Shown here piece by piece: positions 52,718-64,000 of a stretch of DNA of 64,000 bases. The notes under the pieces are model-generated. The model saw only the letters and a program-made list of their open reading frames with translations. It ran no database searches and was not told where the DNA came from. The DNA is from a virus (lineage: Duplodnaviria; Heunggongvirae; Uroviricota; Caudoviricetes), in the IMG/VR virus record IMGVR_UViG_3300042154_003418, positions 40,218 through 104,217 of that record; one strand, given 5' to 3'. The position numbers were made by a program, and so were the translations under genes. Each line of letters starts with the position of its first letter. Positions within the stretch are counted from its first letter, which is position 1.

Positions 52718-52721
52718 AAGA

Positions 52722-52928: not shown

Positions 52929-52961
52929 TGTAATTTTGGCACTTTGGCGCCGGGGTAAATG

Positions 52962-53037: not shown

Positions 53038-53038
53038 A

Positions 53039-53530: not shown

Positions 53531-53606
53531 ACCCACAAAGGACTCGAACCTCATATGCGGGCGGCCTACCCGTAGTTCCAAACTATCATAGCGACTGACT
53601 GTGGGC
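53531..53606 (-). ncRNA. tRNA-like element with a good acceptor and T-arm but a non-canonical D/anticodon region. It is flanked by an 11-bp perfect inverted repeat that extends the acceptor helix.
   Basis: Acceptor gcccaca / tgtgggt. T-loop TTCGAGT. Inverted repeat gccatacatat (53520-53530) / atatgtatggc (53607-53617). Confidence 0.35.
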
Positions 53607-53617
53607 ATATGTATGGC

Positions 53618-53704
53618 GGGTGGCAGAGGAGTCGAACCCCATCCCGGTTAAGAGAACCTGGTTTTCAAGGCCAGTCGCAGGACCAACCCCGCTGCATTAC
53701 CACC
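53618..53704 (-). tRNA. tRNA-Ser (anticodon TGA), type II with long variable arm
   Basis: Acceptor ggtggta / tgccacc. Loop CTTGAAA. Long variable arm. T-loop TTCGACT. Confidence 0.7.
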
Positions 53705-53783
53705 CAAACCCGCTTACGATTATGCGGAGTATGTATTGATGCCCTATAGTTACCAAGGTAACTTTGGCTCATACCGATTAAAA

Positions 53784-54377: not shown

Positions 54378-54387
54378 GCGTTCCTTT

Positions 54388-54471
54388 AATATAATTAAGC
54401 ACTCTAGCTAGCCGTGGAGCCCTTGCTGTTATGCGCGGTGGGGTTTTAACCCAAAAGTGCTTAATTATATT
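54388..54471. repeat. 15-bp perfect inverted repeat enclosing 54 nt, just upstream of the ClpP-like gene
   Basis: aatataattaagcac ... gtgcttaattatatt. Confidence 0.6.
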
Positions 54472-54852
54472 TGCCAGCTTATTCTGTTACGAGGGAAGCC
54501 GAGCGAGAAACCCTAAGCAGTTTTTAAGCTGCTAGTGCGTACGTTTGATCGTTTGCGTTTATTTTTGTTTTGTGTCTGCGGCCAGGTAGAGCGTCTTTTT
54601 GTGCTATATGCACAACGACTACACTTTGCCCCCAACCCTACGGCTTCTACATTGCCGAGTTGTCTACTTTGCTACTCTTAGCCCGGTCGATCCTGTGTCA
54701 GGCCCATCAAAAGCATACTACTAGCATATAAGCTAAAAGAGCCGATCCTTCCAACCGCTGTCGGCCACCCTTTGGGTAGGGTAATATACTTATGGTGGAC
54801 CTGGCGGGCACTGCCCCCGCGTGTCGAACTCTTTTGGGTCTGCTTCATACAA

Positions 54853-54940
54853 CCATATTTTAGCACACTAACGGACATGCGTCGTAACCACTTTCTAAGC
54901 CTGTGCACAGGCAGCGGGCTTCTAGTATGCTAAAATATGG
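54853..54940. repeat. 13-bp perfect inverted repeat enclosing 62 nt, abutting the 3' end of the 54938 tRNA
   Basis: ccatattttagca ... tgctaaaatatgg. Confidence 0.6.
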
Positions 54941-55013
54941 TGCCGGTTGCATGAATCGAACACGCGACCTTCTCGTTACAAGGGAGTTGCTCTACCAACT
55001 GAGCTAAACCGGC
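54938..55013 (-). tRNA. type-I tRNA with GTA anticodon and a weak anticodon stem (possible pseudo or atypical tRNA)
   Basis: Good acceptor gccggtt / aaccggc, D-arm and T-arm. Anticodon arm actcc-CTTGTAA-cgaga has only 3 Watson-Crick pairs. Confidence 0.5.
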
Positions 55014-55058
55014 ATTAATTGACTATTTATTCCGCCGCCCGTCAATTAAGGGAACTAC

Positions 55059-55135
55059 TGGAGTCGGTGACAGGATTCGAACCTGCATAATACGGATTTG
55101 CAATCCGTGGCCTAGCCGTTCAGCTACACACCGAC
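55059..55135 (-). tRNA. tRNA-Cys (anticodon GCA)
   Basis: Anticodon stem acgga/tccgt, loop TTGCAAA. T-loop TTCGAAT. CCA encoded. Confidence 0.85.
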
Positions 55136-55136
55136 A

Positions 55137-55340
55137 TTAAATTTGTTGAGTACTTATACAAGTCTCAAAACCGTTCCACAGTCGCTCAAACTTCATTTGA
55201 TACATTTGCTTGAGTCCGATCAAGTAATTCATACGTTGATCTTCGTCCATGTTGTCATACATATCTAGATACAACTGAATGTCGTCAGTTACATTCCAGC
55301 ATTGCATGATATTTTGTTCTAGGTCAAAGCGATCAGTCAT
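55137..55340 (-). CDS. hypothetical small protein
   Basis: 67-aa ORF. Confidence 0.35.
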   Translation of the reverse strand: MTDRFDLEQNIMQCWNVTDDIQLYLDMYDNMDEDQRMNYLIGLKQMYQMKFERLWNGFETCISTQQI

Positions 55341-55341
55341 T

Positions 55342-55869
55342 TTAAGCCAATATAAATTTTAAACGGTCAGCAGCATAGCTTGCTGCAAAAGCATTTGGTT
55401 TTACTTGAGCATCTACATTACAAGTGCCCTTGATATAACCAATAGCCTGCTGCACAACACAGCTAGAGCCGTACAGTAGGTTTGGATTAATATCCAGGTG
55501 AACTTCAACGTGACGATCTTGTAGTACATCACTTAGTTCATGAAATAGGTCTGAAACCTTGTAAACTTCTTGCATTAACCTGAGTGCAGGTTTAGATACA
55601 CGTTGATCAAAGTCGCGTTCACGACTAATGCTACCAAAAATTTTGCAACCGTGATTGCCGTCAATGTGTACTACAACTGCTAAGGTATAGTCAGCGTGCC
55701 ATACACCATTAACTTTAACACGTTCGCTATCCGCACCAAGATAAACCTTTGTTTCTGCGCTCTGTGCTTGAATGAAGTCTTTGACTTCTTGTAAGTTAAA
55801 TTCGTGCATAGTTGTGGTTGTGTAAAGTATATTATGGTAGGCCCTGAGAGAATCAAACTCCCACTTCAA
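55342..55869 (-). CDS. hypothetical protein
   Basis: 175-aa ORF. The likely start is the internal MHEFNL. Has two Cys/His clusters. Confidence 0.4.
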   Translation of the reverse strand: MKWEFDSLRAYHNILYTTTTMHEFNLQEVKDFIQAQSAETKVYLGADSERVKVNGVWHADYTLAVVVHIDGNHGCKIFGSISRERDFDQRVSKPALRLMQEVYKVSDLFHELSDVLQDRHVEVHLDINPNLLYGSSCVVQQAIGYIKGTCNVDAQVKPNAFAASYAADRLKFILA

Positions 55870-55891
55870 CGTTCGTAGCGTTGTGTAATAT

Positions 55892-56485
55892 TCATTTTAC
55901 TAAAGGCCTATTGTCTAGTTCTACGGCAATATCTAAAAATATCTTATCACTATTTATTCTGTGAATGTACGCATGGTGTGTAGGACATAAATATACTAAG
56001 TTAGATAGGTCATTATTATACCTATTCTCATCTATATGATGTACGTCTAGTATTAGGTTTTCTTCACATGAACAGCATTTAATTTTAAGATCGTTGTCTT
56101 TATAAAATCTATTTAAATACTCTACGTAGCTATAGCTTCCGTCTTTCCTGTTTTTTGCCCCTTGAGTATGAGCAAAAAACTTATTACCACAGTTATAAGA
56201 GCATGTAGTCGGCTCTTTACCAGAAGATAAAAACTCAAATTCATTGTTACACTGTGGGCAAACTTTACTAATTAATTTAGCAGGCTCTTTGCCGTTAGCT
56301 GTAAAGTGAGAAGTACTAATATTGTGTAAAAGACAATAGTCTTTTATCATCTTACCGTACCTGTAGTTTTTGGAATAACCTAATGCTTGTGCAACTATTA
56401 CGGCAGCGTGAGCGTTAGATATTAGTTCTAGTAGTTCTCCAGATTTATGGCTATCTTCTAAAACTTTTAAAAATGTTGTTGACAT
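55892..56485 (-). CDS. HNH homing endonuclease
   Basis: C-terminal NLVYLCPTHHAYIHR HNH motif and Cys-rich zinc-binding segments. Low-GC codon usage. Confidence 0.75.
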   Translation of the reverse strand: MSTTFLKVLEDSHKSGELLELISNAHAAVIVAQALGYSKNYRYGKMIKDYCLLHNISTSHFTANGKEPAKLISKVCPQCNNEFEFLSSGKEPTTCSYNCGNKFFAHTQGAKNRKDGSYSYVEYLNRFYKDNDLKIKCCSCEENLILDVHHIDENRYNNDLSNLVYLCPTHHAYIHRINSDKIFLDIAVELDNRPLVK

Positions 56486-56508
56486 AAACTTTCCTATGTA
56501 TAAGCTAT

Positions 56509-56537
56509 ATTATACAATAAAAGCATTTAAAAGTCAA
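56509..56537 (-). promoter_or_regulatory. T5-type early promoter (TTGACT-17-TATAATATA) for the HNH gene
   Basis: On the - strand: ttgact-N17-tataatatagc. Confidence 0.5.
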
Positions 56538-56563
56538 TCGAAAATTTTTTGAACTACCAAAAT

Positions 56564-56637
56564 TGGCAGAGGATAGAAGAATCGAACTTCTGACAACGGA
56601 ATCAAAATCCGTGGTTATACCATTTAACTAATCCCCA
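56564..56637 (-). tRNA. tRNA-Gln (anticodon TTG)
   Basis: Anticodon stem acgga/tccgt, loop TTTTGAT. D-arm gtta..taac. T-loop TTCGATT. Confidence 0.7.
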
Positions 56638-56644
56638 ACAAAAC

Positions 56645-56719
56645 TGGCTCCACAGGCAGGGATCGAACCTACGACCAATTGATTAACAGTCAACTGCACT
56701 ACCGCTGTGCTACTGTGGA
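56645..56719 (-). tRNA. tRNA-Asn (anticodon GTT)
   Basis: Acceptor tccacag / ctgtgga. Loop CTGTTAA. T-loop TTCGATC. Confidence 0.8.
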
Positions 56720-56723
56720 ATAC

Positions 56724-56817
56724 TTAATACTAGCGCCCGGTACGCCATCCCCGAGTGAGCTTCAGTGGCAGAGAAGGATGCCACTTACACACTATAGCGC
56801 ATTCTCGCTAGTATTAA
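56724..56817. repeat. 12-bp perfect inverted repeat enclosing 70 nt
   Basis: ttaatactagcg ... cgctagtattaa. Confidence 0.6.
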
Positions 56818-56991
56818 ATATGCTGCTTACGATATACAGCGTGACATTGTCGTAGTCACCGATTGGATTACGGACGCTCTAACCGGAACGGCACGGACCT
56901 AAGGCAGGTTTTGGCGGTCTAGAGGGGTAACGATCCCCTTCTACAGCAGTGACAGTGCTGTGTGCGTCCATGAACACTTCTAAACCATATT

Positions 56992-57076
56992 TGGTACCCC
57001 CACCCGGACTCGAACCGGGAAGCCGAAGCGAGGCATTTTAAGTGCCTTGTGTTTACCAGGATTTCACCATAGGGGC
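56992..57076 (-). tRNA. tRNA-Leu (anticodon TAA), type II
   Basis: Anticodon stem aggca/tgcct, loop CTTAAAA. Long variable arm. T-arm cccgg-TTCGAGT-ccggg. Confidence 0.75.
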
Positions 57077-57081
57077 ATATT

Positions 57082-57167
57082 TGGTGGAGAAGGAGGGGAT
57101 CGAACCCACTTGCCTCTTGAGGCCACGGATTTACAATCCGCTGTCCTACCATTAGAACATCTTCTCC
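57082..57167 (-). tRNA. tRNA-Tyr (anticodon GTA), type II
   Basis: Acceptor ggagaag / cttctcc. Loop TTGTAAA. Long variable arm. T-loop TTCGATC. Confidence 0.8.
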
Positions 57168-57218
57168 GTTTAAAGAATAATTATACCGCAAATAGCAAAT
57201 CACGGCAAATCTAAATTT

Positions 57219-57293
57219 TGGCACCCCTCCAGGGACTCGAACCCTGACCAACGGTTTTGGAGACCGCGATGCTGCCAATTACACCAAAGAGAT
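57219..57293 (-). tRNA. tRNA-Trp (anticodon CCA)
   Basis: Anticodon stem gcggt/accgt, loop CTCCAAA. T-arm caggg-TTCGAGT-ccctg. The acceptor is G-U-rich, which is unusual. Confidence 0.6.
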
Positions 57294-57299
57294 AAAATG

Positions 57300-57660
57300 C
57301 TTGGAATTATGCGTTACAGAGTTTTGTCGGGCTTTCACACCCGGTGCCATACCACTTGGCGAATTTCCCAATGGGAGATAAAAGAATCGAACTTTTGATG
57401 AAACTGTAACTATCGCCAAAGCAATAATAATAAAAAACCTTAGAACAACTATTGCAGCGATTTGGTTAGATTAGAAGTCTAGAAGTAACTGCAAAAAACA
57501 CTAAAGGCTTAGAATAAGACTAGAAAAAGCAACGCGGGTATTTGTTTTTCAAACCATATTGAGAAGTAACCGCATCTAGCACTAAGTCCTATTCTAAGCC
57601 TTCGCTTAGAGCCCCACCTTTCTTACACCTGACTGGCTACAGGCTTGGGTCGTGGGTTAG
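57300..57660 (-). ncRNA. non-coding region 3' of the rsr-like gene: a T-arm/acceptor remnant (57366-57390), a 5' half-tRNA-like segment (57300-57365), and a long imperfect hairpin (57504-57602). This is the 3'-side candidate Y-RNA-like transcript.
   Basis: aaaagttcgattcttttatctccca (T-arm + 3' acceptor) is followed by gggaaattcgccaagtggtatggcacc. The aaggcttagaataagactag ... ctagcactaagtcctattctaagcctt helix is about 20 bp. No ORF longer than 60 aa. Confidence 0.35.
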
Positions 57661-57665
57661 TATTA

Positions 57666-59042
57666 TTAAAGCACTTCTGCTTCGAGGGCTTGAATGTAAT
57701 CAATCACAGCTTCGGAGAAACCAGTAATGGTTTCCCACTCAGCACTGTTGATGCCATTCTGATAAGAACCAACGTTCAGGATGTAGTTTTTGTCACGGGA
57801 CAAACGCTTGGCTTTGTGAGGTTCGAAACCTCGGCCACCTGTGTCTTGTTCATCTGTAAACACGATTACTCGGTCTACAAAATTATCATGTTCTTGGCTG
57901 GCGATATAGTCCATAGCTTGCACTAAGAAGATACCGCCACCGCCGATTTTTCGGCCGACCTCTGCACTGCGGATGTAGTCGCTGAGTGCAAAACCACGTC
58001 GATTTGGAATCAACATAGTTGCATGTTTGCGAGTACCATCATTACCGGCTGTTGCGTAGATAACTACTTCTTCGCAGATTTCTCGTGCCAAGATAGCCAG
58101 TGAACAAGCAGCATCAAGACGAGAAATCTCGCTTTTAGCGCTTATTGTTTGCCCCATAGAGCCGCTAGTGTCAACCACCAAAACTGTACGTCCTGGTAGT
58201 TTAGCTTGTGTTGACAAGCTTGCTAGCATCATGCGCTCAAGCATACCCTCAAATTGAGGGACTTGACGGGCCGCAGAAATGTACCGGAAAGGCAACACTT
58301 TTGAAGCGTCAATGGTTTTTGAGTAAGCCTCAATCTCGGACTGAGAAATACCTGCTTGAGTCATGTTACGCAAGTTACGTAAGAATGCTAGTGCACCCAA
58401 TTTGTTTTCACGCATAAGACGTGAGAATGTTTCACGCTTATCAGCGCCCGCACTTAGTTGAGTTTCCCAGGTATCTGGAGTTTCCAACTTGTCTTCAGCA
58501 ATTCGTTTGAATAGCTCGGCTTGCACAGCCGTTTGCGGTTTAGGGTGGCTCAGGAACATAACATCACGCAAGCGAATCGCTGCTGAGTTTTTGTCCCACT
58601 TGGCCAGCTGATACTCGCTGAACTTGTTAAAACAAGCAGCAAGACCACGTTTAACCTGATTGCTCAGGGCTGACTTGCCGTCTTTCCAGTAAATGCTCAG
58701 GAATTCAGACATTTCGTCTGGACGCTGAATAACACTGGTAAGGGCATTTGCTTGTAGTTTACCGTGACGTGCGAGTTCACGAACAAGCAGCAGAGGAACG
58801 TGACGAAGTTTGAACTTAGTACGAGCCTCTAGTGCTAGTGCGGCAACCCGATCAGGGTTCACACTAGCTACCACGCTTTTAATCAGTTCAGCATGGCTTT
58901 TTCCATCAACATAAAACTGGTCTTCCCACAGCATTGCTGCCAGGGTCAAGCGACGCAGTTGTCGTTCTGGATTAATAGTGCGTACTGGAGTACCAACACT
59001 GTTAACAGTCATTGAAGCGGATTTGCGATTAATCGCGGACAT
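57666..59042 (-). CDS. rsr: Ro60/Rsr-like protein (TROVE-like N-terminal region + C-terminal von Willebrand A domain)
   Basis: C-terminal vWA MIDAS motif VLVVDTSGSMG with downstream T and D residues. N-terminal LRRLTLAAMLWEDQFYVDGKS parallels the Ro60 RFLCFGSEGGTYY region. About 460 aa. Embedded among tRNA and tRNA-like genes. Confidence 0.6.
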   Translation of the reverse strand: MSAINRKSASMTVNSVGTPVRTINPERQLRRLTLAAMLWEDQFYVDGKSHAELIKSVVASVNPDRVAALALEARTKFKLRHVPLLLVRELARHGKLQANALTSVIQRPDEMSEFLSIYWKDGKSALSNQVKRGLAACFNKFSEYQLAKWDKNSAAIRLRDVMFLSHPKPQTAVQAELFKRIAEDKLETPDTWETQLSAGADKRETFSRLMRENKLGALAFLRNLRNMTQAGISQSEIEAYSKTIDASKVLPFRYISAARQVPQFEGMLERMMLASLSTQAKLPGRTVLVVDTSGSMGQTISAKSEISRLDAACSLAILAREICEEVVIYATAGNDGTRKHATMLIPNRRGFALSDYIRSAEVGRKIGGGGIFLVQAMDYIASQEHDNFVDRVIVFTDEQDTGGRGFEPHKAKRLSRDKNYILNVGSYQNGINSAEWETITGFSEAVIDYIQALEAEVL

Positions 59043-59073
59043 GGATTTTTCCTTGTAAATAAGTAAGAACTAG

Positions 59074-59120
59074 GCGAAACAGAGATTTTAGCGCTCTACC
59101 AACTGAGCTACTCGACACAC
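59074..59120 (-). ncRNA. tRNA 5'-half fragment (acceptor + intact D-arm) lacking anticodon and T arms
   Basis: The - strand reads gtgtgtcgag-ta-gctcagttggtagagcg, then diverges. Confidence 0.4.
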
Positions 59121-59125
59121 TAAAG

Positions 59126-59213
59126 TGCCAGAGGATGGACTCGAACCACCGACCTCTCGTTTAACAGACGAAGTAACTGTTTCTTTCACTATACCTAAAT
59201 TAAACACACTGGC
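59126..59213 (-). ncRNA. 88-nt tRNA-like RNA: acceptor + T-arm + GTT anticodon-like arm, with a 14-nt expansion in the D region. This is the 5'-side candidate Y-RNA-like (YrlA-type) element.
   Basis: Acceptor gccagtg / ctctggc (1 mismatch). T-arm ggtgg-TTCGAGT-ccatc. Arm ttcgt-CTGTTAA-acgag. Its 5' part is duplicated at 59330-59375. Confidence 0.4.
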
Positions 59214-59429
59214 TAAGAATCTGCGAAAGCAGTTCTTGGAATTGTTTAGCGTCTACATCGCCTAAGACGTTTGCACGGTTTAAAGTGTGTGGCTACCACA
59301 ATTTGTGTGCCACAAGGGCAGACAGCTTTAGTTATGAAGTAACTGACTTCTATCACTATAGCCAAAGTGTTTAATTTAAGTATAAATTATATCAAATATA
59401 ACTTACACTGGCAAGTTTGTATTTTTAGT

Positions 59430-59503
59430 GGTGGACATAGCAGGATTCGAACCGGCGACCTAGGCCGTATGAAGACCGTGCACTACCACTGTGCTATATG
59501 TCC
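59430..59503 (-). tRNA. tRNA-Met/Ile2 (anticodon CAT), second CAT tRNA
   Basis: Acceptor ggacata / tatgtcc. D-arm gcac..gtgc. Loop TTCATAC. T-loop TTCGAAT. CCA encoded. Confidence 0.7.
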
Positions 59504-59889
59504 AGGTGCCGGTTACATTCTCCGGCGGCACATTTCGTTGTGTCTGAAGACATTGACGCTGTTTAAAGTCCACGAGGGGGCATAGTCTGTAGCCATTAGG
59601 TAAACAGATACCTTTACTTGTGTGTTATTTTTGTGTCAGGAAACATCAAACCCCGTGAGAGCAGCCCATCTTGTTTTCGCTTCAGCGGACGCAGGGTGGT
59701 CAATATACTTACCACTGATTACAAGCCTGCAAATGACAATGTAGCGTGGTGCTTATATCCACACATAGACGGGATACACCGGCGAGTTTCCTCAGATAAG
59801 CAATCGTATCTATTGTCAAAAATATGGTGGCGAGCCAATGCCAGGTTTACCAGCTCACTATGCGGCTGCAGAAGTGCTGGAGGGCTAAT

Positions 59890-59960
59890 TTGGTTGCGGG
59901 GGAAGGACTCGAACCTTCTAAGCGGAGCTTATGAGACTTGCTTCTACCCTGACTCCCCGC
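59890..59960 (-). ncRNA. 71-nt degenerate tRNA-like gene: good acceptor, T-arm, CCA and a CUCAUAA loop, but no proper anticodon stem and a shortened D-arm
   Basis: T-arm gaagg-TTCGAGT-ccttc. Acceptor cgcgggg / cccgcaa. The loop ctcataa is flanked by non-pairing caagt/gctcc. Confidence 0.4.
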
Positions 59961-60111
59961 GATATTTTAGTAGTAGCCGTGGAATTCGTTTTTGTAACGA
60001 AACCAGGTACGCTCTAGCTCTTTTAACTGTGACCAAGTTTGTGGATTGTTGTCGGTGACAAAATCTTCAAAGCTATAAGGTTGCAGAGCTTTTTGTAGCT
60101 GAGCCAGTAAA

Positions 60112-60387
60112 TCACTTAGCATTCACAAACTCATAGAATTGCTTTGATTTGGCCAGTACTTCTCCAAAGTCAAAAGGCTTGGGCATAAACTTGGCAATCA
60201 TTTCGGAAGTGTTTTGACCTTTGCTGGCCAGACTTTCTTGCATTTCGGTAATGAACTCCATGTTGGAGGCGTACTCAGCTTGCATTAGCTCTGCGGTCAT
60301 TTTCAAGATTTCAAGACGAATCTCAAAAGGTGATTTATTACTCATTGTAGTTCCTGTGTTGTGATGTGTAAGGTGTAGGCTTTTCAC
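60112..60387 (-). CDS. hypothetical protein
   Basis: 91-aa ORF. Confidence 0.35.
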   Translation of the reverse strand: MKSLHLTHHNTGTTMSNKSPFEIRLEILKMTAELMQAEYASNMEFITEMQESLASKGQNTSEMIAKFMPKPFDFGEVLAKSKQFYEFVNAK

Positions 60388-60438
60388 CTACTTGGAGCGT
60401 TATTTCAGCTCATGTTTGGTACTGAGGGAGGAAGTGTT

Positions 60439-60512
60439 TGGTACCCAGTAGAGGTATCGATCCTCTGATTAACGCTTATCAAGCGTTTGTTATACCATTT
60501 AACTAACCGGGC
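60439..60512 (-). tRNA. tRNA-Ile (anticodon GAT)
   Basis: Anticodon stem aacgc/gcgtt, loop TTGATAA. D-arm gtta..aaca. CCA encoded. Confidence 0.8.
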
Positions 60513-60517
60513 GTATT

Positions 60518-60592
60518 TGGTACTCCGAACGGGTTTCGATCCCGCTTCTCCAACTTGAAAGGCTGGCGTCCTAGCCACTAGACGACCGGAGT
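60518..60592 (-). tRNA. tRNA-Glu (anticodon TTC)
   Basis: Acceptor actccgg / ccggagt. Loop CTTTCAA. T-arm cggg-ATCGAAA-cccg. Confidence 0.8.
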
Positions 60593-60773
60593 GTTTGCGT
60601 AAAGATTAATTATACAGAGATTAGGCTGCGTGTTCAAGACAATATTTATAAGTTTAACCCTAACCACGGGCGAGTATGAGTCGAGACGTGGGCCTATAGC
60701 AACTACTAGGTGGATTAGTCCGTTCGTAAAGGATTGGTAATCACTCCAACTTAGGGTCAAACTTATAAATACT

Positions 60774-60849
60774 TGGTGCAACCTACAGGAATCGAACCTG
60801 TTTCCATCGCTCTTCAGGCGACCGCTATGACCACATCAGCTAAAGTTGC
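60774..60849 (-). tRNA. tRNA-Phe (anticodon GAA)
   Basis: Acceptor gcaactt / aggttgc. Anticodon stem gtcgc/gcgat, loop CTGAAGA. T-loop TTCGATT. CCA encoded. Confidence 0.75.
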
Positions 60850-61068
60850 TTAAAATACTGGATTTTGTGCTTGCCATGTTTCTGCTTCATGACCATCACA
60901 GTCAATACGCCAAGGGCAAGTACTGAGAATTTGTGTTGAGCAATCGTCGTTACCCCAGCATACTGGAGGTTGAGTACCACGCAAGACTTTAATCTGCTTG
61001 TGCACTAAGTCACGACGATTTGCTAGATTGGCTTCTTTGTCTAGCAATACTTGAATTTCAGTCATATA
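60850..61068 (-). CDS. small Cys-rich protein (trimmed to avoid the tRNA overlap)
   Basis: The ORF track gives 60850..61236, which runs through tRNA-His and tRNA-Ser. The internal Met product MTEIQVLLDKEANLANRRDLVHKQIKVLRGTQPPVCWGNDDCSTQILSTCPWRIDCDGHEAETWQAQNPVF is more plausible. Confidence 0.35.
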   Translation of the reverse strand, partial: YMTEIQVLLDKEANLANRRDLVHKQIKVLRGTQPPVCWGNDDCSTQILSTCPWRIDCDGHEAETWQAQNPVF

Positions 61069-61074
61069 AACCTT

Positions 61075-61150
61075 TGGGCAGTCGTTACGGATTCGATCCG
61101 TTCCTACGAGTTTCACAGACTCGGGTGCTTCCACTACACTAAACGCTGCA
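61075..61150 (-). tRNA. tRNA-His (anticodon GTG), acceptor with a one-nucleotide bulge
   Basis: Anticodon stem cgagt/actcg, loop CTGTGAA. T region acggATCGAATccgt. 3' strand acgActgc pairs with gcagcgt. Confidence 0.65.
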
Positions 61151-61154
61151 TATT

Positions 61155-61241
61155 TGGCGGGAGATACAGGAATCGAACCTGTCAGCCTATTTCTAAACGA
61201 AGGCTTAGCAAGCCTCTGTTGCACCTTGCAACACATCTCCC
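61155..61241 (-). tRNA. tRNA-Ser (anticodon GCT), type II
   Basis: Acceptor gggagat / atctccc. Loop TTGCTAA. Long variable arm. T-loop TTCGATT. CCA encoded. Confidence 0.8.
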
Positions 61242-61355
61242 AGTACCATATTTGAGCATACTAACATCCACTTTTCGAACTTGTACTTTGTTCGCGAATA
61301 CGTGTAGTCTTGCAAAACCAGTGGTTGAACGCCAACTGTTAATATGCTCAAATAT

Positions 61356-61427
61356 GGTAGGACTGAAGGGTAACGATCCCTTTTCTACTGGTTAAAAGCC
61401 AGTTGCTTCACCTTAAAGCTTCAATCC
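61356..61427 (-). tRNA. tRNA-Lys (anticodon TTT), compact (about 68 nt before the 3' tail)
   Basis: Acceptor ggattga / tcagtcc. D-arm gctt-taaggtg-aagc. Anticodon stem actgg/ccagt, loop CTTTTAA. T-arm aaggg-ATCGTTA-ccctt. Confidence 0.65.
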
Positions 61428-61569
61428 CATTAACCGCCCCAACCTTCTCGGTTAAGTTTTCCGCGCAATTGCTTGTGCGATTTTTTATGAGAACCAGCAC
61501 CGTTGCGCTTTAACAACGCTAAATGCACATGGTTCCGAGGTTTTCGTGTTTTCATTATATTCCTAAAAT

Positions 61570-61647
61570 TGGTGGAGAATATCGGATTCGAACCGATCTG
61601 TGTCCTGCTTGCAAAGCAGGTGTCCACCCCAAGCAGACCCATTCCCC
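61570..61647 (-). tRNA. tRNA-Ala (anticodon TGC)
   Basis: Anticodon stem cctgc/gcagg, loop TTTGCAA. T-arm atcgg-TTCGAAT-ccgat. CCA encoded. Confidence 0.85.
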
Positions 61648-61653
61648 AAATTG

Positions 61654-61738
61654 TGGTGCGTCGAGAGAGACTCGAACTCTCAATCCTTTCGGCACTGGCT
61701 TCTAAGACCAGCGTGTATACCATTTCCACCACCAACGC
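61654..61738 (-). tRNA. tRNA-Leu (anticodon TAG), type II
   Basis: Acceptor gcgttgg / tcgacgc. Loop CTTAGAA. Long variable arm. T-arm gagag-TTCGAGT-ctctc. Confidence 0.75.
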
Positions 61739-61739
61739 A

Positions 61740-61934
61740 TTATACTTTAATGTCTACGTTTACGCCTTTAGTACTATCAACTGGTCTGTAGTAGACCGTT
61801 TGCTGTACAAACTGAGCACCATTGTTATCAACTTTGGTTGCGTAGACTATCTCACGTATTTTATCAAAATACGGAGTAAATGTTCTTGAAACGCTTTTTG
61901 TTTCCATATTGTTGTACCTACTGTTTGCTACCAC
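61740..61934 (-). CDS. hypothetical small protein
   Basis: 64-aa ORF between tRNAs. Confidence 0.3.
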   Translation of the reverse strand: MVANSRYNNMETKSVSRTFTPYFDKIREIVYATKVDNNGAQFVQQTVYYRPVDSTKGVNVDIKV

Positions 61935-62088
61935 ACCCGCTAAGGCATCGGCTTAGTTTTGCAAAGATTAATTACTTCTCGCTATATACTAGGCTCAAGG
62001 TATAGACAGTACTTATCTAGAAAGTAAAGTCACTTCTGCTTGTAAGGCTCCGAAACTAAATCAGAGACGCGCAATAGATACAACAATA

Positions 62089-62162
62089 TGGTCTCGATGG
62101 TAAGAATCGAACTTACGCTTCATGGTCCCAAACCACGGGTGATGCCATTTCACTACACCGAG
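62089..62162 (-). tRNA. tRNA-Pro (anticodon TGG)
   Basis: Anticodon stem cgtgg/ccatg, loop TTTGGGA with G37. T-arm gtaag-TTCGATT-cttac. CCA encoded. Confidence 0.8.
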
Positions 62163-62265
62163 ATAACCTTTTTGATAACTCAGAGCTGGTAATCTGAGAC
62201 ACTTTTTAGAACTGTGTGAAATCTACTGGAATACGCAAAACTGTCCAGTGCAACAAAGAATAATA

Positions 62266-62294
62266 ATTATACTTGAAAAAGCATTTAACCACAA
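62266..62294 (-). promoter_or_regulatory. T5-type early promoter (TTGTGG-17-TATAATTAT) driving the tRNA-Pro unit
   Basis: On the - strand: acttgtggttaaatgctttttcaagtataattat. Confidence 0.45.
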
Positions 62295-62378
62295 GTGTAA
62301 ATTTTTAAAGCCATAAGTTAACACACTAAACTAGTTAGGCTGCAATAGGAGCCATTGTTCATAGAGTGTGTTAAATTA

Positions 62379-62552
62379 TGGTGGATCGGGCAGGACTCGA
62401 ACCTGCGTCTCTATAATTCTATAACCCGTGGCCATGTATTCGAACTCAGGCTGAACTGTAGCTGATTACGCCGTTGCAGGGCCAGGGTCAACTATCTACG
62501 TTCAAAGGGTTATAGTCCGGATTTGCGCTTTCGCCACCTAAGCTACCGATCC
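62379..62552 (-). ncRNA. split/interrupted tRNA-like gene. Acceptor + D-arm at the 5' end and T-arm + acceptor + CCA at the 3' end are separated by about 120 nt instead of an anticodon arm.
   Basis: 5' ggatcgg-ta-gctt-aggtggcga-aagc. 3' gcagg-TTCGAGT-cctgc-ccgatcc-a-cca. The internal 9-bp helix ctataaccc / gggttatag encloses about 80 nt, which includes a second TTCGAAT box. Confidence 0.4.
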
Positions 62553-62636
62553 ATATAAAAGCACATTTAAACAGTCCTTCAACGCTAGTCGCTATCTCCC
62601 TTACTAGAGGGCGGAACAGTATGTGCTTTTATATGG
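62551..62636. repeat. 16-bp perfect inverted repeat enclosing 54 nt, immediately 5' (on the - strand) of the split tRNA-like gene
   Basis: ccatataaaagcacat ... atgtgcttttatatgg. Confidence 0.65.
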
Positions 62637-62643
62637 ATTCTAA

Positions 62644-62764
62644 CCATATATTAGCATAATCAATATTACCATGTTGACGCATGGCTTTTCGCAGTTCGTC
62701 AAAACCACCGAATAACGCACCGCGCCTTGCGATGCCATTACCCGTCAATTACGCTAATATATGG
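62644..62764. repeat. 12-bp perfect inverted repeat enclosing 97 nt, followed by a small hairpin (62765-62781)
   Basis: ccatatattagc ... gctaatatatgg, then tctccc-ttgc-gggagc. Confidence 0.6.
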
Positions 62765-62825
62765 TCTCCCTTGCGGGAGCCATAATCTATCATTTAAAGA
62801 ACAAATTATACAGGATTAACTACGA

Positions 62826-63026
62826 TCAGTCAACTGTATTTTTATAGACTCGAAGTGCTTCAGCATCTAAGCTGGCATAACTACGAAAGCTATCGCGACC
62901 TACTCGATCATAAAGATCATTTGCCATTTGTTCTAGCCGTACCAGTTGCTCGATGGTAATTTTCGTGCAATGAATATAACGGCTTAAGAAAGCATCTATA
63001 AGAAAGTCACGTGAATAGCCTGACAT
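62826..63026 (-). CDS. hypothetical small protein
   Basis: 66-aa ORF with the T5-type promoter ttgacg-17-tataatata at 63048-63076. Confidence 0.35.
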   Translation of the reverse strand: MSGYSRDFLIDAFLSRYIHCTKITIEQLVRLEQMANDLYDRVGRDSFRSYASLDAEALRVYKNTVD

Positions 63027-63038
63027 AAGTTCTCCAAA

Positions 63039-63383
63039 TCAGTCTATATTATAAAGCATTTCAGCTACTTCGTCAAGTGTCAAAACACGAATCTTAGTAT
63101 CACCACGCTCATTGGCCTGTTTTAGCCAATTTGCTAACACACTGTGCATTAGGCCACTCAAGTGGTAGTTGTTGTTATGGCAGCGGTATGTGCTACCACT
63201 ATACCCGTCGAATTCAAACCAGTCTTCAACTTTACGTGTAACAGTAATTCCTGAATTTAGTTTCCAGCTATTCGACCCAGTGTATCCGCCGTACCAGCCA
63301 GCAAATACTTTGCGTGTTGGGGTTTCCAGTTCAGGTGCGTCAAATTCTAACACAACCCAAACGTCTGGTGTGTATTCATTCAT
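63039..63383 (-). CDS. hypothetical protein
   Basis: 114-aa ORF. Promoter motif at 63407-63435 lies inside the hairpin aaatcaga...tctgattt. Confidence 0.4.
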   Translation of the reverse strand: MNEYTPDVWVVLEFDAPELETPTRKVFAGWYGGYTGSNSWKLNSGITVTRKVEDWFEFDGYSGSTYRCHNNNYHLSGLMHSVLANWLKQANERGDTKIRVLTLDEVAEMLYNID

Positions 63384-63447
63384 ATTATTTCTCCAAATCA
63401 GACTATATTATAATCTGATTTAAGCAAACAATCAAGTCTAAATTTCT

Positions 63448-63522
63448 TGGCCCGGCTAGCAGGAATCGAACCCACATTAAGGGCTTAGAAGACCCCTGTA
63501 TTATCCGTTATACGATAGCCAG
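63448..63522 (-). tRNA. tRNA-Arg (anticodon TCT)
   Basis: Acceptor ctggcta / tagccgg. D-arm gtat..atac. Anticodon stem ggggt/gccct, loop CTTCTAA. T-loop TTCGATT. CCA encoded. Confidence 0.75.
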
Positions 63523-63527
63523 ATTTG

Positions 63528-63980
63528 TTACATTGTTACTGGGCTATAAGGCACAAACAGCTCGTCATGCAACATTTGCTGCAGTTCAGGGTCCATGTAC
63601 TCAAAGTTGTCTGGAATGTTTAGCACAATTTGCTTTTGTTCAATTTGTGTTAGCAGCTCGTTGTGTCCCAAGAAGTTATCCTCAAGCTGCCACAAGTTTT
63701 CACGATTAACAAACACAATCTTTTCAGCCCAGCTAATCAAGTTGGCACTACAAGGCACTAGTGCGTAGTTGAAGTTTGAGCCGCAACTGCGAGCGTTAAT
63801 ACCACGCTGAACGGCCATAGCAGCACCAGTAGGACTGCGAAGCAATCCAGCACTGCAAACAAACAACCAGCGCGGAGCTTGGCCTTGATAAGGATTGCTG
63901 TAAGGTGCCGATGTTTTAAAGATTGTGTCATTTTTAGTTCCGGCTGCAAATTCGCGTAAGTTTGGATTAGTTGGATTCAT
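63528..63980 (-). CDS. low-molecular-weight phosphatase-like protein (CX5R P-loop)
   Basis: WLFVCSAGLLRSP fits the C-X5-R(S/T) P-loop of LMW protein-tyrosine phosphatases and ArsC. 150 aa. Confidence 0.45.
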   Translation of the reverse strand: MNPTNPNLREFAAGTKNDTIFKTSAPYSNPYQGQAPRWLFVCSAGLLRSPTGAAMAVQRGINARSCGSNFNYALVPCSANLISWAEKIVFVNRENLWQLEDNFLGHNELLTQIEQKQIVLNIPDNFEYMDPELQQMLHDELFVPYSPVTM

Positions 63981-64000
63981 GGTATTATGTTAGTTGTTTG

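What the first reader, a model, noticed from the sequence alone, without database searches (positions are those of the whole stretch)
62379..62636. tRNA gene split by an about 120-nt internal insertion, preceded by a 16-bp perfect-stem hairpin
The 5' acceptor strand plus a textbook D-arm (ggatcgg-ta-gctt-aggtggcga-aagc) sit at 62552-62527. The matching T-arm, 3' acceptor strand and CCA (gcagg-TTCGAGT-cctgc-ccgatcc-a-cca) sit at 62410-62379. About 120 nt lie between them where a 17-nt anticodon arm should be. The insert forms its own 9-bp helix (ctataaccc/gggttatag) and contains a second TTCGAAT box. It is too short for a group I intron. It could be a novel small intron, a tRNA-embedded ncRNA, or a tRNA-like scaffold such as a Y-RNA-like or processing substrate. 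Immediately 5' on the - strand is the strongest hairpin in the island, a 16-bp perfect stem at 62551-62636.
Basis: seen in the sequence. Interest (0 to 1): 0.65.

Follow-up and report, generated by a model that had tools for sequence, protein, structure and literature searches.

The report
Self-pairing tRNA-shaped RNA in phage
This is a gene for a 174-base RNA with a tRNA body whose anticodon loop is replaced by a conserved branched domain carrying two self-complementary loops; it belongs to a family from uncultured T5-like phages that matched no Rfam family or paper searched here, and resembles the 'tRNA-like stable RNAs' of phage T5, whose function is still unknown.

Summary
On the minus strand, 62552-62379 holds a 7-bp acceptor stem, D arm, T arm, A73 and an encoded CCA, with about 120 nt where the anticodon arm should be.

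It is not an accident or a pseudogene. I found 29 distinct homologues in phage and metagenome contigs. Across them 97.9% of predicted pairs hold, and 23 of 32 pairs show compensatory changes.

It is not a split decoding tRNA. Relatives carry tRNAs for all 20 amino acids. The would-be anticodon loop lacks U33 and varies as a palindrome.

It is not a tmRNA: there is no G3:U70 and no conserved tag frame. It is unlikely to be the partner of the phage Ro60 protein, because a YrlA-like RNA sits beside that gene.

The main new finding is a 6-10 nt self-complementary sequence after the anticodon-stem remnant. It takes seven forms (UCCGGA, GCCGGC, GUCGAC, GUGCAC and others).

I infer a tRNA mimic matured by tRNA enzymes that pairs with copies of itself. 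Its function is unknown. The upstream hairpin is one of about ten spacer hairpins in the island.

The parts
62379..62552 (-). The whole element: a 174-nt tRNA-shaped RNA gene running from G1 (62552) to CCA (62381-62379).
   Evidence: Read. It is the only full match in the window to covariance model R1 (179.8 bits, E 1e-52). 29 homologues align.
62546..62552 (-). 5' strand of the acceptor stem, GGATCGG. It pairs with CCGATCC at 62383-62389.
   Evidence: 7 pairs, 100% paired in 29 sequences, with compensatory changes at 5 of the 7 pairs (1:72 GC/AU, 3:70 GC/AU, 4:69 UA/AU/CG, 5:68, 6:67).
62527..62543 (-). D arm, GCTT-AGGTGGCGA-AAGC. It has A14, G15 and G18G19, and is preceded by U8 A9.
   Evidence: 4 pairs, two of them covarying (CG/AU, UA/CG). 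G18G19 and U8 are invariant. G15 matches C48 at 62407, and the 15:48 pair switches to A:U in L019, L021 and L032 (read).
62516..62521 (-). Site 1: the self-complementary hexamer TCCGGA. It sits in the internal loop that takes the place of the 5' half of the anticodon loop.
   Evidence: every one of 23 aligned homologues has a palindrome of at least 6 nt here, in 7 distinct forms; the symmetry holds, with outer pair GC 13 / UA 13, middle CG 23 / UA 3 / GC 1, and inner CG 27 / GC 1. Self-duplex energies are -7 to -12 kcal/mol.
62507..62515 (-). P2 helix, 5' strand CTATAACCC. It pairs with GGGTTATAG at 62419-62427.
   Evidence: helix 3: all 8 scored pairs show changes on both sides, and 93.8% of cells are paired.
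62452..62504 (-). P3, the variable arm. Its base helix is TGAAC/GTTCA, and its apical hairpin GCC-CTGCAAC-GGC (62482-62470) carries a GCAA-type loop.
   Evidence: helix 4: all 5 pairs covary (UGAAC/GUUCA, CACU/AGUG, CAGA/UCUG). About five sequence types of P3 are exchanged between otherwise different backbones. Most types end in a YGCAA loop, but the L032/L111 type does not.
62431..62451 (-). Hairpin GCC-[TGAGTTCGAATACAT]-GGC, which holds site 2.
   Evidence: helix 5: the stem covaries (CG 21 / GC 8); the central dinucleotide is CG in 26 sequences and GC in 3 (TTGCAA in L044, L055 and L058). A viral-contig scan with the centre left free found no other variant inside true elements.
62407..62418 (-). 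3' strand of the A/U-rich remnant of the anticodon stem (AATTATAG), followed by the 4-nt variable loop AGAC.
   Evidence: In L046 the Rfam tRNA model aligns CAAA...UUUU as the anticodon stem, with a 97-nt insertion. The pair C27:G43 is conserved.
62390..62406 (-). T arm, GCAGG-TTCGAGT-CCTGC.
   Evidence: helix 6: 100% paired. One homologue (L055) has GUUGG/CCAAC.
62379..62389 (-). 3' acceptor strand CCGATCC, discriminator A, and the encoded CCA.
   Evidence: CCA is encoded in 27 of 29 homologues, as it is in all 22 tRNAs of the island.
62549..62638 (-). Upstream spacer hairpin with an 18-bp perfect stem and a 54-nt loop. Its 3' arm overlaps G1-U4 of the element.
   Evidence: I4. The same loop module lies at a fixed offset of 59 nt upstream of the element in 12 loci carrying different element subtypes. 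Other loci have other hairpins at this place, with compensatory stem changes.
62311..62381 (-). Downstream spacer hairpin. Its 5' arm begins with the element's CCA.
   Evidence: (I9): 17-nt arms, 94% complementary.
62805..62833 (-). Sigma-70-like promoter, TTGACT-17-TATAAT preceded by TG. It overlaps the stop codon of the 66-aa ORF. The element is the first full RNA gene downstream of it.
   Evidence: 11 of 12 matches. The motif TTGACTGATCG...CTGTATAAT recurs 153-459 nt upstream of the element in at least 9 related loci.

Best explanation
The region 62552-62379 (minus strand) encodes a stable, non-decoding, tRNA-shaped RNA. It belongs to a conserved family carried in the tRNA islands of uncultured T5-like phages.

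Shown here:
- It has a complete tRNA body: a 7-bp acceptor stem, D arm, T arm, U8, G18G19, a covarying 15:48 pair, A73 and an encoded CCA.
- The anticodon loop is replaced by a three-way junction of about 115 nt. This comprises helix P2, a variable arm P3 that in most types ends in a GCAA-type loop, and a short hairpin.
- All helices are supported by compensatory changes.
- Two unpaired segments are self-complementary, and they change between phages in ways that keep them self-complementary.

Inferred:
1. The RNA is transcribed from the conserved promoter at 62833-62805 as the first gene of a tRNA operon.
2. It is cut out like a tRNA, by RNase P at G1 and by 3' trimming to the encoded CCA. The flanking long hairpins may be cut first, possibly by RNase III.
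3. It folds into a tRNA-like L shape.
4. It then pairs with a second copy of itself through site 1, and perhaps site 2, to give a symmetric dimer or a larger assembly.
5. It acts as a tRNA mimic, either a decoy or a scaffold for a tRNA-binding host or phage factor. It does not act in decoding.

The identity of its partner and its benefit to the phage remain unknown.
For: Sequence and family:
- The sequence features are read.
- 29 distinct sequences are aligned in A4.

Structure:
- 97.9% of cells are paired.
- 23 of 32 pairs change on both sides.
- No shuffle out of 500 reaches the observed values.
- The slid controls give 29-47% pairing.

tRNA character:
- The Rfam tRNA model spans the whole homologue in L046 at 37.9 bits, with a 97-nt insertion in the anticodon arm.
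- Model R1 also scores ordinary tRNAs at 16-56 bits.

Self-complementarity:
- Site 1 takes seven different palindromes at the same structural position.
- 98.8% of cells in the two sites are symmetric, with compensatory changes.
- Palindromic pairing and kissing loops are described dimerisation motifs of natural RNAs (PMC12990946).

Context:
- The promoter is conserved.
- CCA is encoded, as in all the island's tRNAs.
- No ORF of 40 aa or more overlaps the region on either strand.
- The gene order is conserved: tRNA-Arg(tct), 150-aa ORF, 114-aa ORF, 66-aa ORF, element, tRNA-Pro.
- The nearest cultured relatives by DNA polymerase are T5-like phages at 50% identity.
- The T5 record annotates 'tRNA-like stable RNA with unknown functions' (RNA1, RNA2) in its tRNA cluster. 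RNA2 lies upstream of tRNA-Pro and folds as a tRNA with a long anticodon arm containing a second UUCGA hairpin.
Against: - There is no expression or processing data. Maturation, stability and self-association are all inferred.
- Site 2 has only one compensatory event (CG to GC, in three related sequences). UUCGAA is also the ordinary T-loop sequence, so its palindromic character could be inherited from a duplicated T arm.
- The predicted accessibility of the two sites is only modestly above average (0.54 and 0.62, against 0.44 overall).
- Site 1 lies in an internal loop, not a hairpin loop. That is a less common setting for a kissing contact.
- Nothing identifies a binding partner.
- The family was found only in one sub-clade. 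Most of the more distant phages that share the neighbouring 66-aa ORF lack it within the 1.5 kb fetched.
- The alignment used for the statistics was fitted to a model derived from the same family.
Confidence: 0.6

Rival explanations
1. Y RNA: the RNA is a partner of the phage-encoded Ro60/TROVE protein. It would tether that protein to an effector, as bacterial YrlA RNAs are thought to do.
For: - A TROVE plus vWA protein is encoded at 57666-59042. It lies 3.3 kb downstream on the same strand, which meets the 'within 4 kb, same strand' rule used by Chen et al. 2014 (PMC4201824).
- At least 11 element-bearing contigs also carry TROVE.
- YrlA RNAs mimic tRNA, and bacteria often have two Y RNAs.
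- The remnant of the anticodon stem is irregular, recalling the kinked stem reported for YrlA (my reading of the abstract of 10.1101/312249 listed).
Against: - YrlA has the permuted order T arm, closed acceptor-like stem-loop, D arm, with its 5' and 3' ends forming the Ro-binding stem and no free CCA. This RNA has the normal tRNA order with an open acceptor stem and CCA.
- The GNCGAAN0-1G motif is absent. The candidate positions vary as palindromes, which a fixed protein-recognition motif would not do.
- Rfam YrlA does not hit the element. It does hit 59073-59183, immediately upstream of TROVE, and the same position in six relatives (27-41 bits, all below the 69-bit gathering score).
- L004, L005 and L007 hold the whole tRNA island with the element but without TROVE.
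Confidence: 0.12
2. Processing or regulatory element: the tRNA-like fold acts in cis as an entry point or a timing device for maturation of the downstream tRNA operon, for example by recruiting RNase P. It would not be a free-standing RNA.
For: - It is the first structured RNA after a conserved promoter and precedes tRNA-Pro in nearly all loci.
- It is embedded between spacer hairpins that pair with its own G1-U4 and CCA.
Against: - An encoded CCA, a covarying 7-bp acceptor stem and a full set of tertiary tRNA positions point to a released, tRNA-like product.
- The distance to the promoter varies from 153 to 459 nt, and the intervening modules differ.
- T5 RNA1 and RNA2 are annotated as stable RNAs.
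Confidence: 0.1
3. Intron-containing tRNA: the insertion of about 100-120 nt is removed from the anticodon loop to give a decoding tRNA.
For: - The insertion sits where tRNA introns sit, in the anticodon loop around positions 36-38 (my reading).
- ARAGORN calls no tRNA-His or tRNA-Thr in the window.
Against: - Removing P2 and everything inside it leaves a loop such as CCGGAAA or CCGGCAA. This has C33, and a 'triplet' that differs between near-identical bodies (GGA, GGC, GAC), which is incompatible with one amino-acid identity.
- The residual stem is mismatched.
- The insert is half the size of the smallest group I introns (my knowledge), and no intron or ribozyme family matches it.
- Relatives encode tRNAs for all 20 amino acids.
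- tRNA-His is present at 61079-61147.
- The insert itself is under strong structural selection, including loops that have no role in any known splicing mechanism.
Confidence: 0.04
4. tmRNA-like rescue RNA: a tRNA-like domain plus a short internal tag-coding region.
For: - In a small search, the Rfam tmRNA model weakly matches the T arm and 3' acceptor strand (16.6 bits, E 2e-4; 18 bits in L053).
- The general plan is that of a tRNA-like domain with a large insertion.
- Some homologues have short frames that start at the GCA of the conserved GCAA loop (my reading).
Against: - Pair 3:70 is A:U or G:C in 29 of 29 sequences, never G:U.
- The frames starting at GCA are inconsistent in length and in their ends, and several have no stop before the T arm (my reading).
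- A true D stem is present.
- The score is far below the 47-bit gathering threshold.
- The phage already carries a permuted tmRNA at 54524-54854 (91.3 bits), and relatives have one with tags such as ANDQVYALAA.
Confidence: 0.03
5. Decayed tRNA gene: a pseudogene disrupted by an insertion of junk or mobile DNA.
For: - tRNA finders skip it.
- Single-sequence folding is not significant.
- The P3 segment is swapped between phages like a module.
Against: - Compensatory changes occur in every helix, including those inside the insert.
- The unpaired motifs are nearly invariant.
- The element is conserved across 29 distinct sequences.
Confidence: 0.02

Closest known systems
Phage T5 'tRNA-like stable RNAs with unknown functions' (RNA2, 125 nt; RNA1, 144 nt), as annotated in NC_005859
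   Same: - They are encoded inside the tRNA cluster of a T5-type phage. The window's DNA polymerase is 50% identical to those of T5-like Vibrio phages.
- T5 RNA2 has an acceptor stem, a D arm and a T arm (GCAGG-UUCGAAU-CCUGU, nearly the same as here).
- Its anticodon arm is replaced by a long structured arm that contains a second UUCGA-loop hairpin.
- It lies upstream of tRNA-Pro.
- Its function is likewise unknown.
   Different: - Outside the tRNA body there is no alignable similarity. Model R1 scores RNA2 at 14.2 bits, below most true tRNAs.
- In the predicted fold, RNA2's extension is a single long hairpin, not a three-way junction.
- I saw no counterpart in it of the covarying site 1 palindrome.
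- It does not encode CCA.
- Homology is possible but not shown.
Phage T4 species 1 RNA (rnaC, 139 nt)
   Same: It is a small stable RNA at the end of the T4 tRNA cluster, with a tRNA-type T arm near its 3' end. Its function is not given in the record, which calls it only a small, stable RNA.
   Different: Only the T-arm region resembles the element (15.5 bits). I saw no clear D arm, junction domain or palindromic loops when reading the sequence.
YrlA / bacterial Y RNAs (Rfam RF02553)
   Same: They are non-decoding tRNA mimics with D and T arms and tRNA tertiary pairs, encoded near a Ro60/TROVE gene. Mycobacterium smegmatis YrlA is even cut by RNase P and receives CCA (PMC4201824).
   Different: YrlA has a permuted topology, a closed acceptor-like stem and a Ro-binding 5'/3' stem carrying GNCGAA. 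None of these is present here. A separate YrlA-like RNA occupies the position next to TROVE.
tmRNA
   Same: It combines a tRNA-like domain with an encoded or added CCA and a large insertion where the anticodon arm would be. Its 5' end is made by RNase P.
   Different: The element has no G3:U70, no tag reading frame and no pseudoknot series, and it has a real D stem. The phage has its own permuted tmRNA.
Self-associating natural RNAs: the HIV-1 dimerisation initiation site, HYER1/HYER5, and the ROOL, GOLLD and OLE assemblies
   Same: They associate through short self-complementary sequences in loops. GUGCAC, one of the site 1 variants, is also an HIV-1 DIS palindrome (my knowledge). Palindromic pairing and kissing loops are recognised dimerisation motifs, and GOLLD lies near tRNA clusters and is linked to phages (PMC12990946).
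   Different: Those RNAs are not tRNA-shaped, and their assembly has been shown experimentally. Here self-association is inferred from covariation alone.

Membership tests
Canonical (decoding) tRNA, with or without an intron | A 7-bp acceptor stem, a discriminator base and a 3' CCA | tested here: met
   7 pairs, 100% paired. A73 plus CCA is encoded in 27 of 29 homologues.
Canonical (decoding) tRNA, with or without an intron | D arm and T arm with the conserved tertiary positions (U8, A14, G18G19, the 15:48 pair, and a UUCRA T loop closed by G53:C61) | tested here: met
   The 15:48 pair is G:C in the window, L033 and L043, and A:U in L019, L021 and L032. In several other homologues it is A:A or U:A.
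Canonical (decoding) tRNA, with or without an intron | A 5-bp anticodon stem and a 7-nt loop with U33 and an anticodon that is stable within the family | tested here: not met
   only an irregular A/U helix remains. The loop remnant has C33, and its central triplet varies as half of a palindrome.
Canonical (decoding) tRNA, with or without an intron | Recognised by tRNA gene finders | tested here: inconclusive
   ARAGORN does not call it in the window or in the relatives. Rfam tRNA does not call the window copy but does call the L046 homologue at 37.9 bits with a 97-nt insertion.
Canonical (decoding) tRNA, with or without an intron | The insert belongs to a known self-splicing or enzyme-spliced intron class | tested here: not met
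   No intron or ribozyme family of Rfam matches, even at E <= 10. Actual splicing cannot be tested with these tools.
tmRNA | A G3:U70 alanine identity pair in the acceptor stem | tested here: not met
   pair 3:70 is G:C in 18 sequences and A:U in 11, never G:U.
tmRNA | A conserved tag reading frame with a resume codon and a stop | tested here: not met
   Reading the frames from the conserved GCA, the lengths and ends are inconsistent and several homologues have no stop.
tmRNA | A match to the family covariance model | tested here: not met
   16.6-18 bits against a gathering score of 47, covering only the T arm and 3' acceptor strand.
YrlA / Y RNA | Encoded within about 4 kb of a Ro60/TROVE gene on the same strand | tested here: inconclusive
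   Met in the window (3.3 kb) and in at least 11 contigs. Not met in L004, L005 and L007, where the whole island is held without TROVE.
YrlA / Y RNA | A stem formed by the 5' and 3' ends that carries the Ro-binding motif (GNCGAAN0-1G or GGUCCGA) | tested here: not met
   The ends form a tRNA acceptor stem. No conserved GNCGAA is present.
YrlA / Y RNA | A permuted tRNA-like module (T arm, closed acceptor-like stem-loop, D arm) with no free CCA | tested here: not met
   The order here is the normal D ... T with an open acceptor stem and CCA. The RNA at 59073-59183 does have the permuted order.
YrlA / Y RNA | Binding to Ro60/Rsr | not testable with these tools
   This needs co-immunoprecipitation or a gel-shift assay.
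T5-type tRNA-like stable RNAs (RNA1, RNA2) | A stable, non-decoding RNA of 120-180 nt in a phage tRNA cluster, with tRNA acceptor, D and T arms and an expanded anticodon arm | tested here: met
   The architecture is met. Stability in vivo cannot be tested here. This is a descriptive class, not a curated family.
T5-type tRNA-like stable RNAs (RNA1, RNA2) | Sequence or structure homology to T5 RNA2 beyond the generic tRNA body | tested here: not met
   R1 scores T5 RNA2 at 14.2 bits. The inserts have different topologies.
Self-associating RNAs with palindromic or kissing-loop contacts | An unpaired self-complementary segment maintained by compensatory change | tested here: met
   Site 1: seven palindromes at one position, with 97.6% of cells symmetric and all three pairs changing on both sides. 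Site 2: CG or GC centre only, from a single event.
Self-associating RNAs with palindromic or kissing-loop contacts | Demonstrated dimer or oligomer formation | not testable with these tools
   This needs native gels, SEC-MALS or cryo-EM. The calculated self-duplex energies are -7 to -12 kcal/mol for site 1 and -4 to -6 for site 2.

The most novel reading that the evidence does not exclude
The RNA is a tRNA-shaped building block that assembles with copies of itself through two self-complementary loops. A GCAA-type loop on the exchangeable P3 arm may add a further contact. The product would be a symmetric dimer or a closed multimer that displays several tRNA bodies with CCA ends. That would make it the first tRNA mimic with an RNA-only quaternary structure. 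It would be a small relative in principle of the ROOL and GOLLD assemblies that also sit beside phage tRNA clusters. It would also offer a first mechanistic handle on the tRNA-like stable RNAs that the T5 and T4 records still list without a function.
Probability: 0.35. Interest if true: 0.8.

Novelty: new variant of a known kind. Interest (0 to 1): 0.62.

Why it matters
Phages T4 and T5 have been known for decades to make small stable tRNA-like RNAs from their tRNA clusters (my knowledge), and their genome records still give no function for them.

This family gives that old puzzle a covariation-backed structure. It also gives a specific, cheap test: does the RNA dimerise through the palindromic loops, and does breaking and then restoring the palindrome break and restore the dimer?

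If the RNA does self-assemble, tRNA mimicry and RNA quaternary structure would meet in one small molecule. That would suggest how phages could present several tRNA-like surfaces at once, for example to tRNA-processing enzymes or to tRNA-targeting defence nucleases.

It is also a practical warning for annotation. tRNA finders skip these genes, or one model calls them tRNAs with huge insertions.

Tried and rejected
- **Split tRNA for a missing amino acid.** Rejected: relatives encode tRNAs for all 20 amino acids, and tRNA-His is present in the window.
- **Hidden tag peptide.** I read frames from the conserved GCA in 12 homologues. They are inconsistent.
- **Pairing between the two palindromic sites, or between site 2 and the element's own T loop or D loop.** Rejected: the sites vary independently (UCCGGA occurs with both UUCGAA and UUGCAA), and the T and D loops do not change with them.
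- **An alternative hairpin CAAAG/CUUUG that would place site 1 in a hairpin loop.** It is present only in P3 type A and is not conserved.
- **Origin from one of the phage's own tRNAs.** No close match: the best has 29 of 41 positions identical.
- **Obligatory partnership with the adjacent 66-aa ORF.** Rejected: most of the more distant homologues of the ORF have no element within 1.5 kb. The ORF has no family match and no match in cultured phages.
- **DNA similarity to cultured phages.** None found.
- **Further site 2 variants.** A scan of viral contigs with the centre of the palindrome left free found none.
- **Cofolding as a test of dimerisation.** Not attempted, because loop-loop contacts are pseudoknots for that algorithm. 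I computed only accessibility and duplex energies, which are weakly supportive.
- **Literature searches.** Four searches found no description of this RNA.
Full report
**What is there**

Read on the minus strand, 62552-62379 is laid out as follows.

| Segment | Sequence |
|---|---|
| Acceptor stem, 5' strand | GGAUCGG |
| Positions 8-9 | UA |
| D arm | GCUU-AGGUGGCGA-AAGC |
| Position 26 | G |
| Remnant of the anticodon stem | CAAA |
| Site 1 | UCCGGA |
| P2, 5' strand | CUAUAACCC |
| P3, about 55 nt | UGAAC ... GUUCA |
| Site 2 hairpin | GCC-UGAGUUCGAAUACAU-GGC |
| Junction | CAC |
| P2, 3' strand | GGGUUAUAG |
| 3' strand of the stem remnant | AAUUAUAG |
| Variable loop | AGAC |
| T arm | GCAGG-UUCGAGU-CCUGC |
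| Acceptor stem, 3' strand | CCGAUCC |
| Discriminator and 3' end | A-CCA |

The upstream hairpin is real and slightly longer than stated: 18/18 bp, with arms at 62638-62621 and 62566-62549.

ARAGORN and the Rfam gathering search do not call the element. A permissive Rfam search gives only a weak tmRNA match to the T arm and 3' end (16.6 bits). Folding energy alone is unremarkable, at z = -1.54. No ORF of 40 aa or more overlaps the region.

**Setting**

The window is a phage.
- It encodes a ribonucleotide reductase, a family A DNA polymerase, a DnaB-like helicase and an SbcC-like protein.
- Its polymerase is 50% identical to those of T5-like Vibrio phages.
- There is no DNA match to cultured phages.

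Positions 51.3-63.5 kb form a minus-strand RNA island containing:
- 22 ARAGORN tRNAs;
- a tRNA-His that only Rfam finds, at 61079-61147;
- a permuted tmRNA at 54524-54854 (91 bits);
- a Ro60-type TROVE plus vWA gene at 57666-59042.

**The family**

Exact-pattern scans of viral and metagenome contigs, and a probe built from the neighbouring 66-aa ORF, recovered homologues in roughly 35-40 contigs. A covariance model built from 11 of them (R1) finds exactly one full copy in the window (179.8 bits). Otherwise it finds only ordinary tRNAs, at 8-40 bits. It aligns 29 distinct sequences (A4).

On that alignment:
- 97.9% of cells form standard pairs;
- 23 of 32 pairs show changes on both sides;
- none of 500 shuffles reaches the observed values;
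- sliding the 3' partners by 1-3 columns drops pairing to 29-47%.

Every helix covaries:
- the acceptor stem, at 5 of 7 pairs;
- the D stem;
- P2, at all 8 scored pairs;
- the base of P3, at all 5 pairs;
- the short hairpin stem;
- the T stem, in one homologue (GUUGG/CCAAC).

U8 and G18G19 are invariant. The 15:48 pair switches between G:C and A:U in several lineages.

This is therefore a real, selected tRNA-shaped RNA. A decayed gene is excluded.

**Why it is not a decoding or intron-split tRNA**

- Related phages whose whole island is held (L004, L005, L007) encode tRNAs for all 20 amino acids in addition to this element.
- The remnant of the anticodon stem is a mismatched A/U helix.
- In one homologue the Rfam tRNA model spans the whole element at 37.9 bits. 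It aligns CAAA/UUUU as the stem, with a 97-nt insertion.
- Removing P2 and its contents leaves a loop with C rather than U at position 33.
- The central triplet of that loop differs between phages with almost identical bodies.
- No intron or ribozyme family matches.

**Why it is not a tmRNA**

- Pair 3:70 is never G:U.
- Frames read from the conserved GCA are inconsistent.
- The phage has its own tmRNA.

**Why it is probably not the Ro60 partner**

The TROVE gene made this a serious candidate. The element lies within 4 kb of it on the same strand, which is the criterion of Chen et al. 2014 (PMC4201824). Four observations argue against it.
- YrlA RNAs have a permuted order (T arm, closed acceptor-like stem, D arm). 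Their Ro-binding stem is made by the two ends and carries GNCGAA. They have no free CCA. None of that applies here.
- An RNA with exactly that permuted layout sits at 59073-59183, immediately upstream of the TROVE gene: GAAACAG ... T arm ... stem-loop ... GCUC-AGUUGGUA-GAGC ... CUGUUUC.
- That RNA gives sub-threshold YrlA scores in the window and at the same place in six relatives (27-41 bits, against a gathering score of 69).
- The element occurs with TROVE in at least 11 contigs and without it in at least 8. These include the three with complete islands.

**The new observation: two self-complementary segments**

Site 1 lies just after the remnant of the anticodon stem, in an otherwise unpaired internal loop. 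Every homologue carries a self-complementary sequence there, and it differs between phages:
- UCCGGA (the window)
- GCCGGC
- GUCGAC
- GUGCAC
- AUCGCGAU
- CGCACGUGCG
- AAUCCGGAUU

That is seven forms. Treated as pseudo-pairs on A4, the two sites together are symmetric in 98.8% of cells. At site 1 the counts are:

| Site 1 pseudo-pair | Counts |
|---|---|
| Outer | G:C 13, U:A 13 |
| Middle | C:G 23, U:A 3, G:C 1 |
| Inner | C:G 27, G:C 1 |

A hexamer with no spacer cannot fold back on itself. The simplest reading is therefore pairing between two copies of the RNA.

It sits in the loop of a 3-4 bp hairpin and is also a palindrome. It reads UUCGAA in 26 sequences and UUGCAA in 3. The variant keeps the symmetry but puts a pyrimidine at the purine position of the T-loop consensus (my knowledge). 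A scan with the centre left free found no other variant.

This second case rests on a single evolutionary event. UUCGAA is also the ordinary T-loop sequence. I therefore regard it as suggestive only.

Calculated self-duplex energies are -7 to -12 kcal/mol for site 1 and -4 to -6 for site 2. Predicted accessibility is modestly above average. Palindromic pairing and kissing loops are recognised dimerisation motifs of natural RNAs (PMC12990946).

**The variable arm**

P3 comes in about five sequence types. Each type is well conserved, and the types are exchanged between different backbones. For example, the window shares its P3 with L004 and L037, but shares its backbone style with L033. Most types end in a YGCAA loop; the L032/L111 type does not. 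P3 therefore looks like a swappable specificity module.

**Expression signals (inferred)**

A sigma-70-like promoter with an extended -10 (TTGACT-17-TATAAT, 62833-62805) overlaps the stop codon of the 66-aa ORF. It is conserved 153-459 nt upstream of the element in at least nine loci.

Between the promoter and the element lie:
- a small hairpin followed by ACCA (62779-62762);
- one or more spacer hairpins.

**The hairpin**

The 18-bp stem is one of about ten long inverted repeats between the RNA genes of the island. Many of them start at the CCA of the upstream RNA and end at UGG, where GG can be the first bases of the next RNA.

One flanks each side of the element: 62638-62549 on the 5' side and 62381-62311 on the 3' side.

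The loop module of the upstream hairpin recurs at a fixed offset of 59 nt upstream of elements of different subtypes in 12 loci. Other loci carry other hairpins at that position, with compensatory stem changes.

The hairpin is therefore a generic spacer or processing module, not part of this RNA. Its 3' arm competes with the acceptor stem for G1-U4. Cleavage by RNase III is a plausible role, but I did not test it.

**Closest known relatives**

The annotated T5 genome lists 'tRNA-like stable RNA with unknown functions' in its tRNA cluster: RNA1 (144 nt) and RNA2 (125 nt). It also lists several other stable RNAs.

T5 RNA2 has these properties:
- it lies upstream of tRNA-Pro;
- it has an almost identical T arm;
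- it folds as a tRNA whose anticodon arm is a long hairpin capped by a second UUCGA loop.

R1 scores it at only 14.2 bits. It is therefore an analogue and, at most, a distant relative. T4 species 1 RNA (rnaC) is a further analogue.

I found no Rfam family and no paper describing the present family.

**Verdict**

This is a well-supported new family within a known but unexplained kind, the phage tRNA-like stable RNAs. It comes with a specific, testable prediction of self-association.

My confidence in each part of the conclusion is:

| Claim | Confidence |
|---|---|
| The structure is real and conserved | about 0.9 |
| The RNA self-associates | about 0.5 |
| It acts as a decoy or scaffold | about 0.3 |

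Noticed in passing
window 59073-59183 (-), next to 57666-59042 (-): A phage Ro60-type protein (TROVE plus vWA, 458 aa) is preceded by an RNA with the permuted YrlA layout: a 5'/3' stem GAAACAG/CUGUUUC, a T arm, a stem-loop and a D arm. Its Rfam YrlA score is only 27 bits against a gathering score of 69, but the same arrangement recurs in six related phages at 28-41 bits. This looks like a divergent phage YrlA subfamily that the curated model under-detects.
   Followed up: partly
window 54524-54854 (-): A permuted (two-piece type) tmRNA sits inside the phage tRNA island (Rfam 91.3 bits). ARAGORN missed it in the window but calls permuted tmRNAs with tags such as ANDQVYALAA and ANDNTYALAA in relatives.
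   Followed up: partly
window 51000-64000, e.g. 61244-61359, 54852-54941, 62643-62765, 62311-62381: About ten long spacer hairpins (16-23 bp stems, 37-87 nt loops) lie between the RNA genes. Many begin at the CCA of the upstream RNA and end in UGG at or near the 5' end of the next RNA. Their loop modules are shared between phages in different combinations. They may be RNase III sites, or boundaries at which gene modules are shuffled.
   Followed up: partly
window 62762-62779 (-) and 62634-62645 (-): A minihelix CUCCC-GCAA-GGGAG followed by ACCA opens the leader after the promoter. Relatives have a different hairpin followed by CCA at the same place. Between the two upstream hairpins lies GGTTAGAATCCA, which looks like the remnant of a T loop plus CCA.
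   Followed up: no
window 61079-61147 (-): A tRNA-His (anticodon GTG) is found by Rfam at 37 bits but not by ARAGORN. It sits just after tRNA-Ser, where relatives have tRNA-His.
   Followed up: partly
window 54938-55013 (-): A 76-nt tRNA called Tyr(gta) by ARAGORN lies between tRNA-Cys and the tmRNA, where relatives have tRNA-Thr(tgt). Its loop CUUGUAA can also be read as UGU, and its anticodon stem pairs poorly in either register. The window also has a normal 86-nt tRNA-Tyr. This may be a miscalled or unusual tRNA-Thr.
   Followed up: partly
window 59891-59961 (-): A 71-nt tRNA-like sequence (GCGGGGA ... CUCAUAA ... AAGG-UUCGAGU-CCUU-CCCCCGC-A-ACCA) has no obvious D arm. It is hit only weakly by model R1 (18.4 bits) and is missed by ARAGORN and Rfam. 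Similar 3' ends (GAAGGTTCGAGTCCTTCCGCCGCAACCA) occur in L063, L071 and L077.
   Followed up: no
window 63528-63980 (-), 63039-63383 (-), 62826-63026 (-): Three small ORFs (150, 114 and 66 aa) are conserved in this order upstream of the element. The 150-aa protein has a C-X5-R-S motif (VCSAGLLRS), like low-molecular-weight phosphatases or ArsC, but no profile matches it. The other two have no match in Pfam, NCBIfam or PHROGs, and the 66-aa ORF has no match in cultured phages.
   Followed up: partly
L044-L061 compared with the window (element homologues): The phages closest to the window by TROVE identity (L058 and L059, 90%) carry an element of a different subtype (P3 type C, site 2 UUGCAA). 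The window's P3 matches that of more distant phages (L004, L037). The element therefore appears to be mosaic, with arms exchanged by recombination.
   Followed up: partly
L241 (phage T5, NC_005859 record positions 30284-33083 and 40848-41566): The T5 record annotates eight stable RNAs of unknown function in and around its tRNA cluster (RNAI, RNAIII, RNAIV, RNA1, RNA2, RNA2H, RNA3, RNAX). As far as these searches show, none has an Rfam family. A comparative study of them across the many sequenced T5-like phages looks feasible.
   Followed up: no
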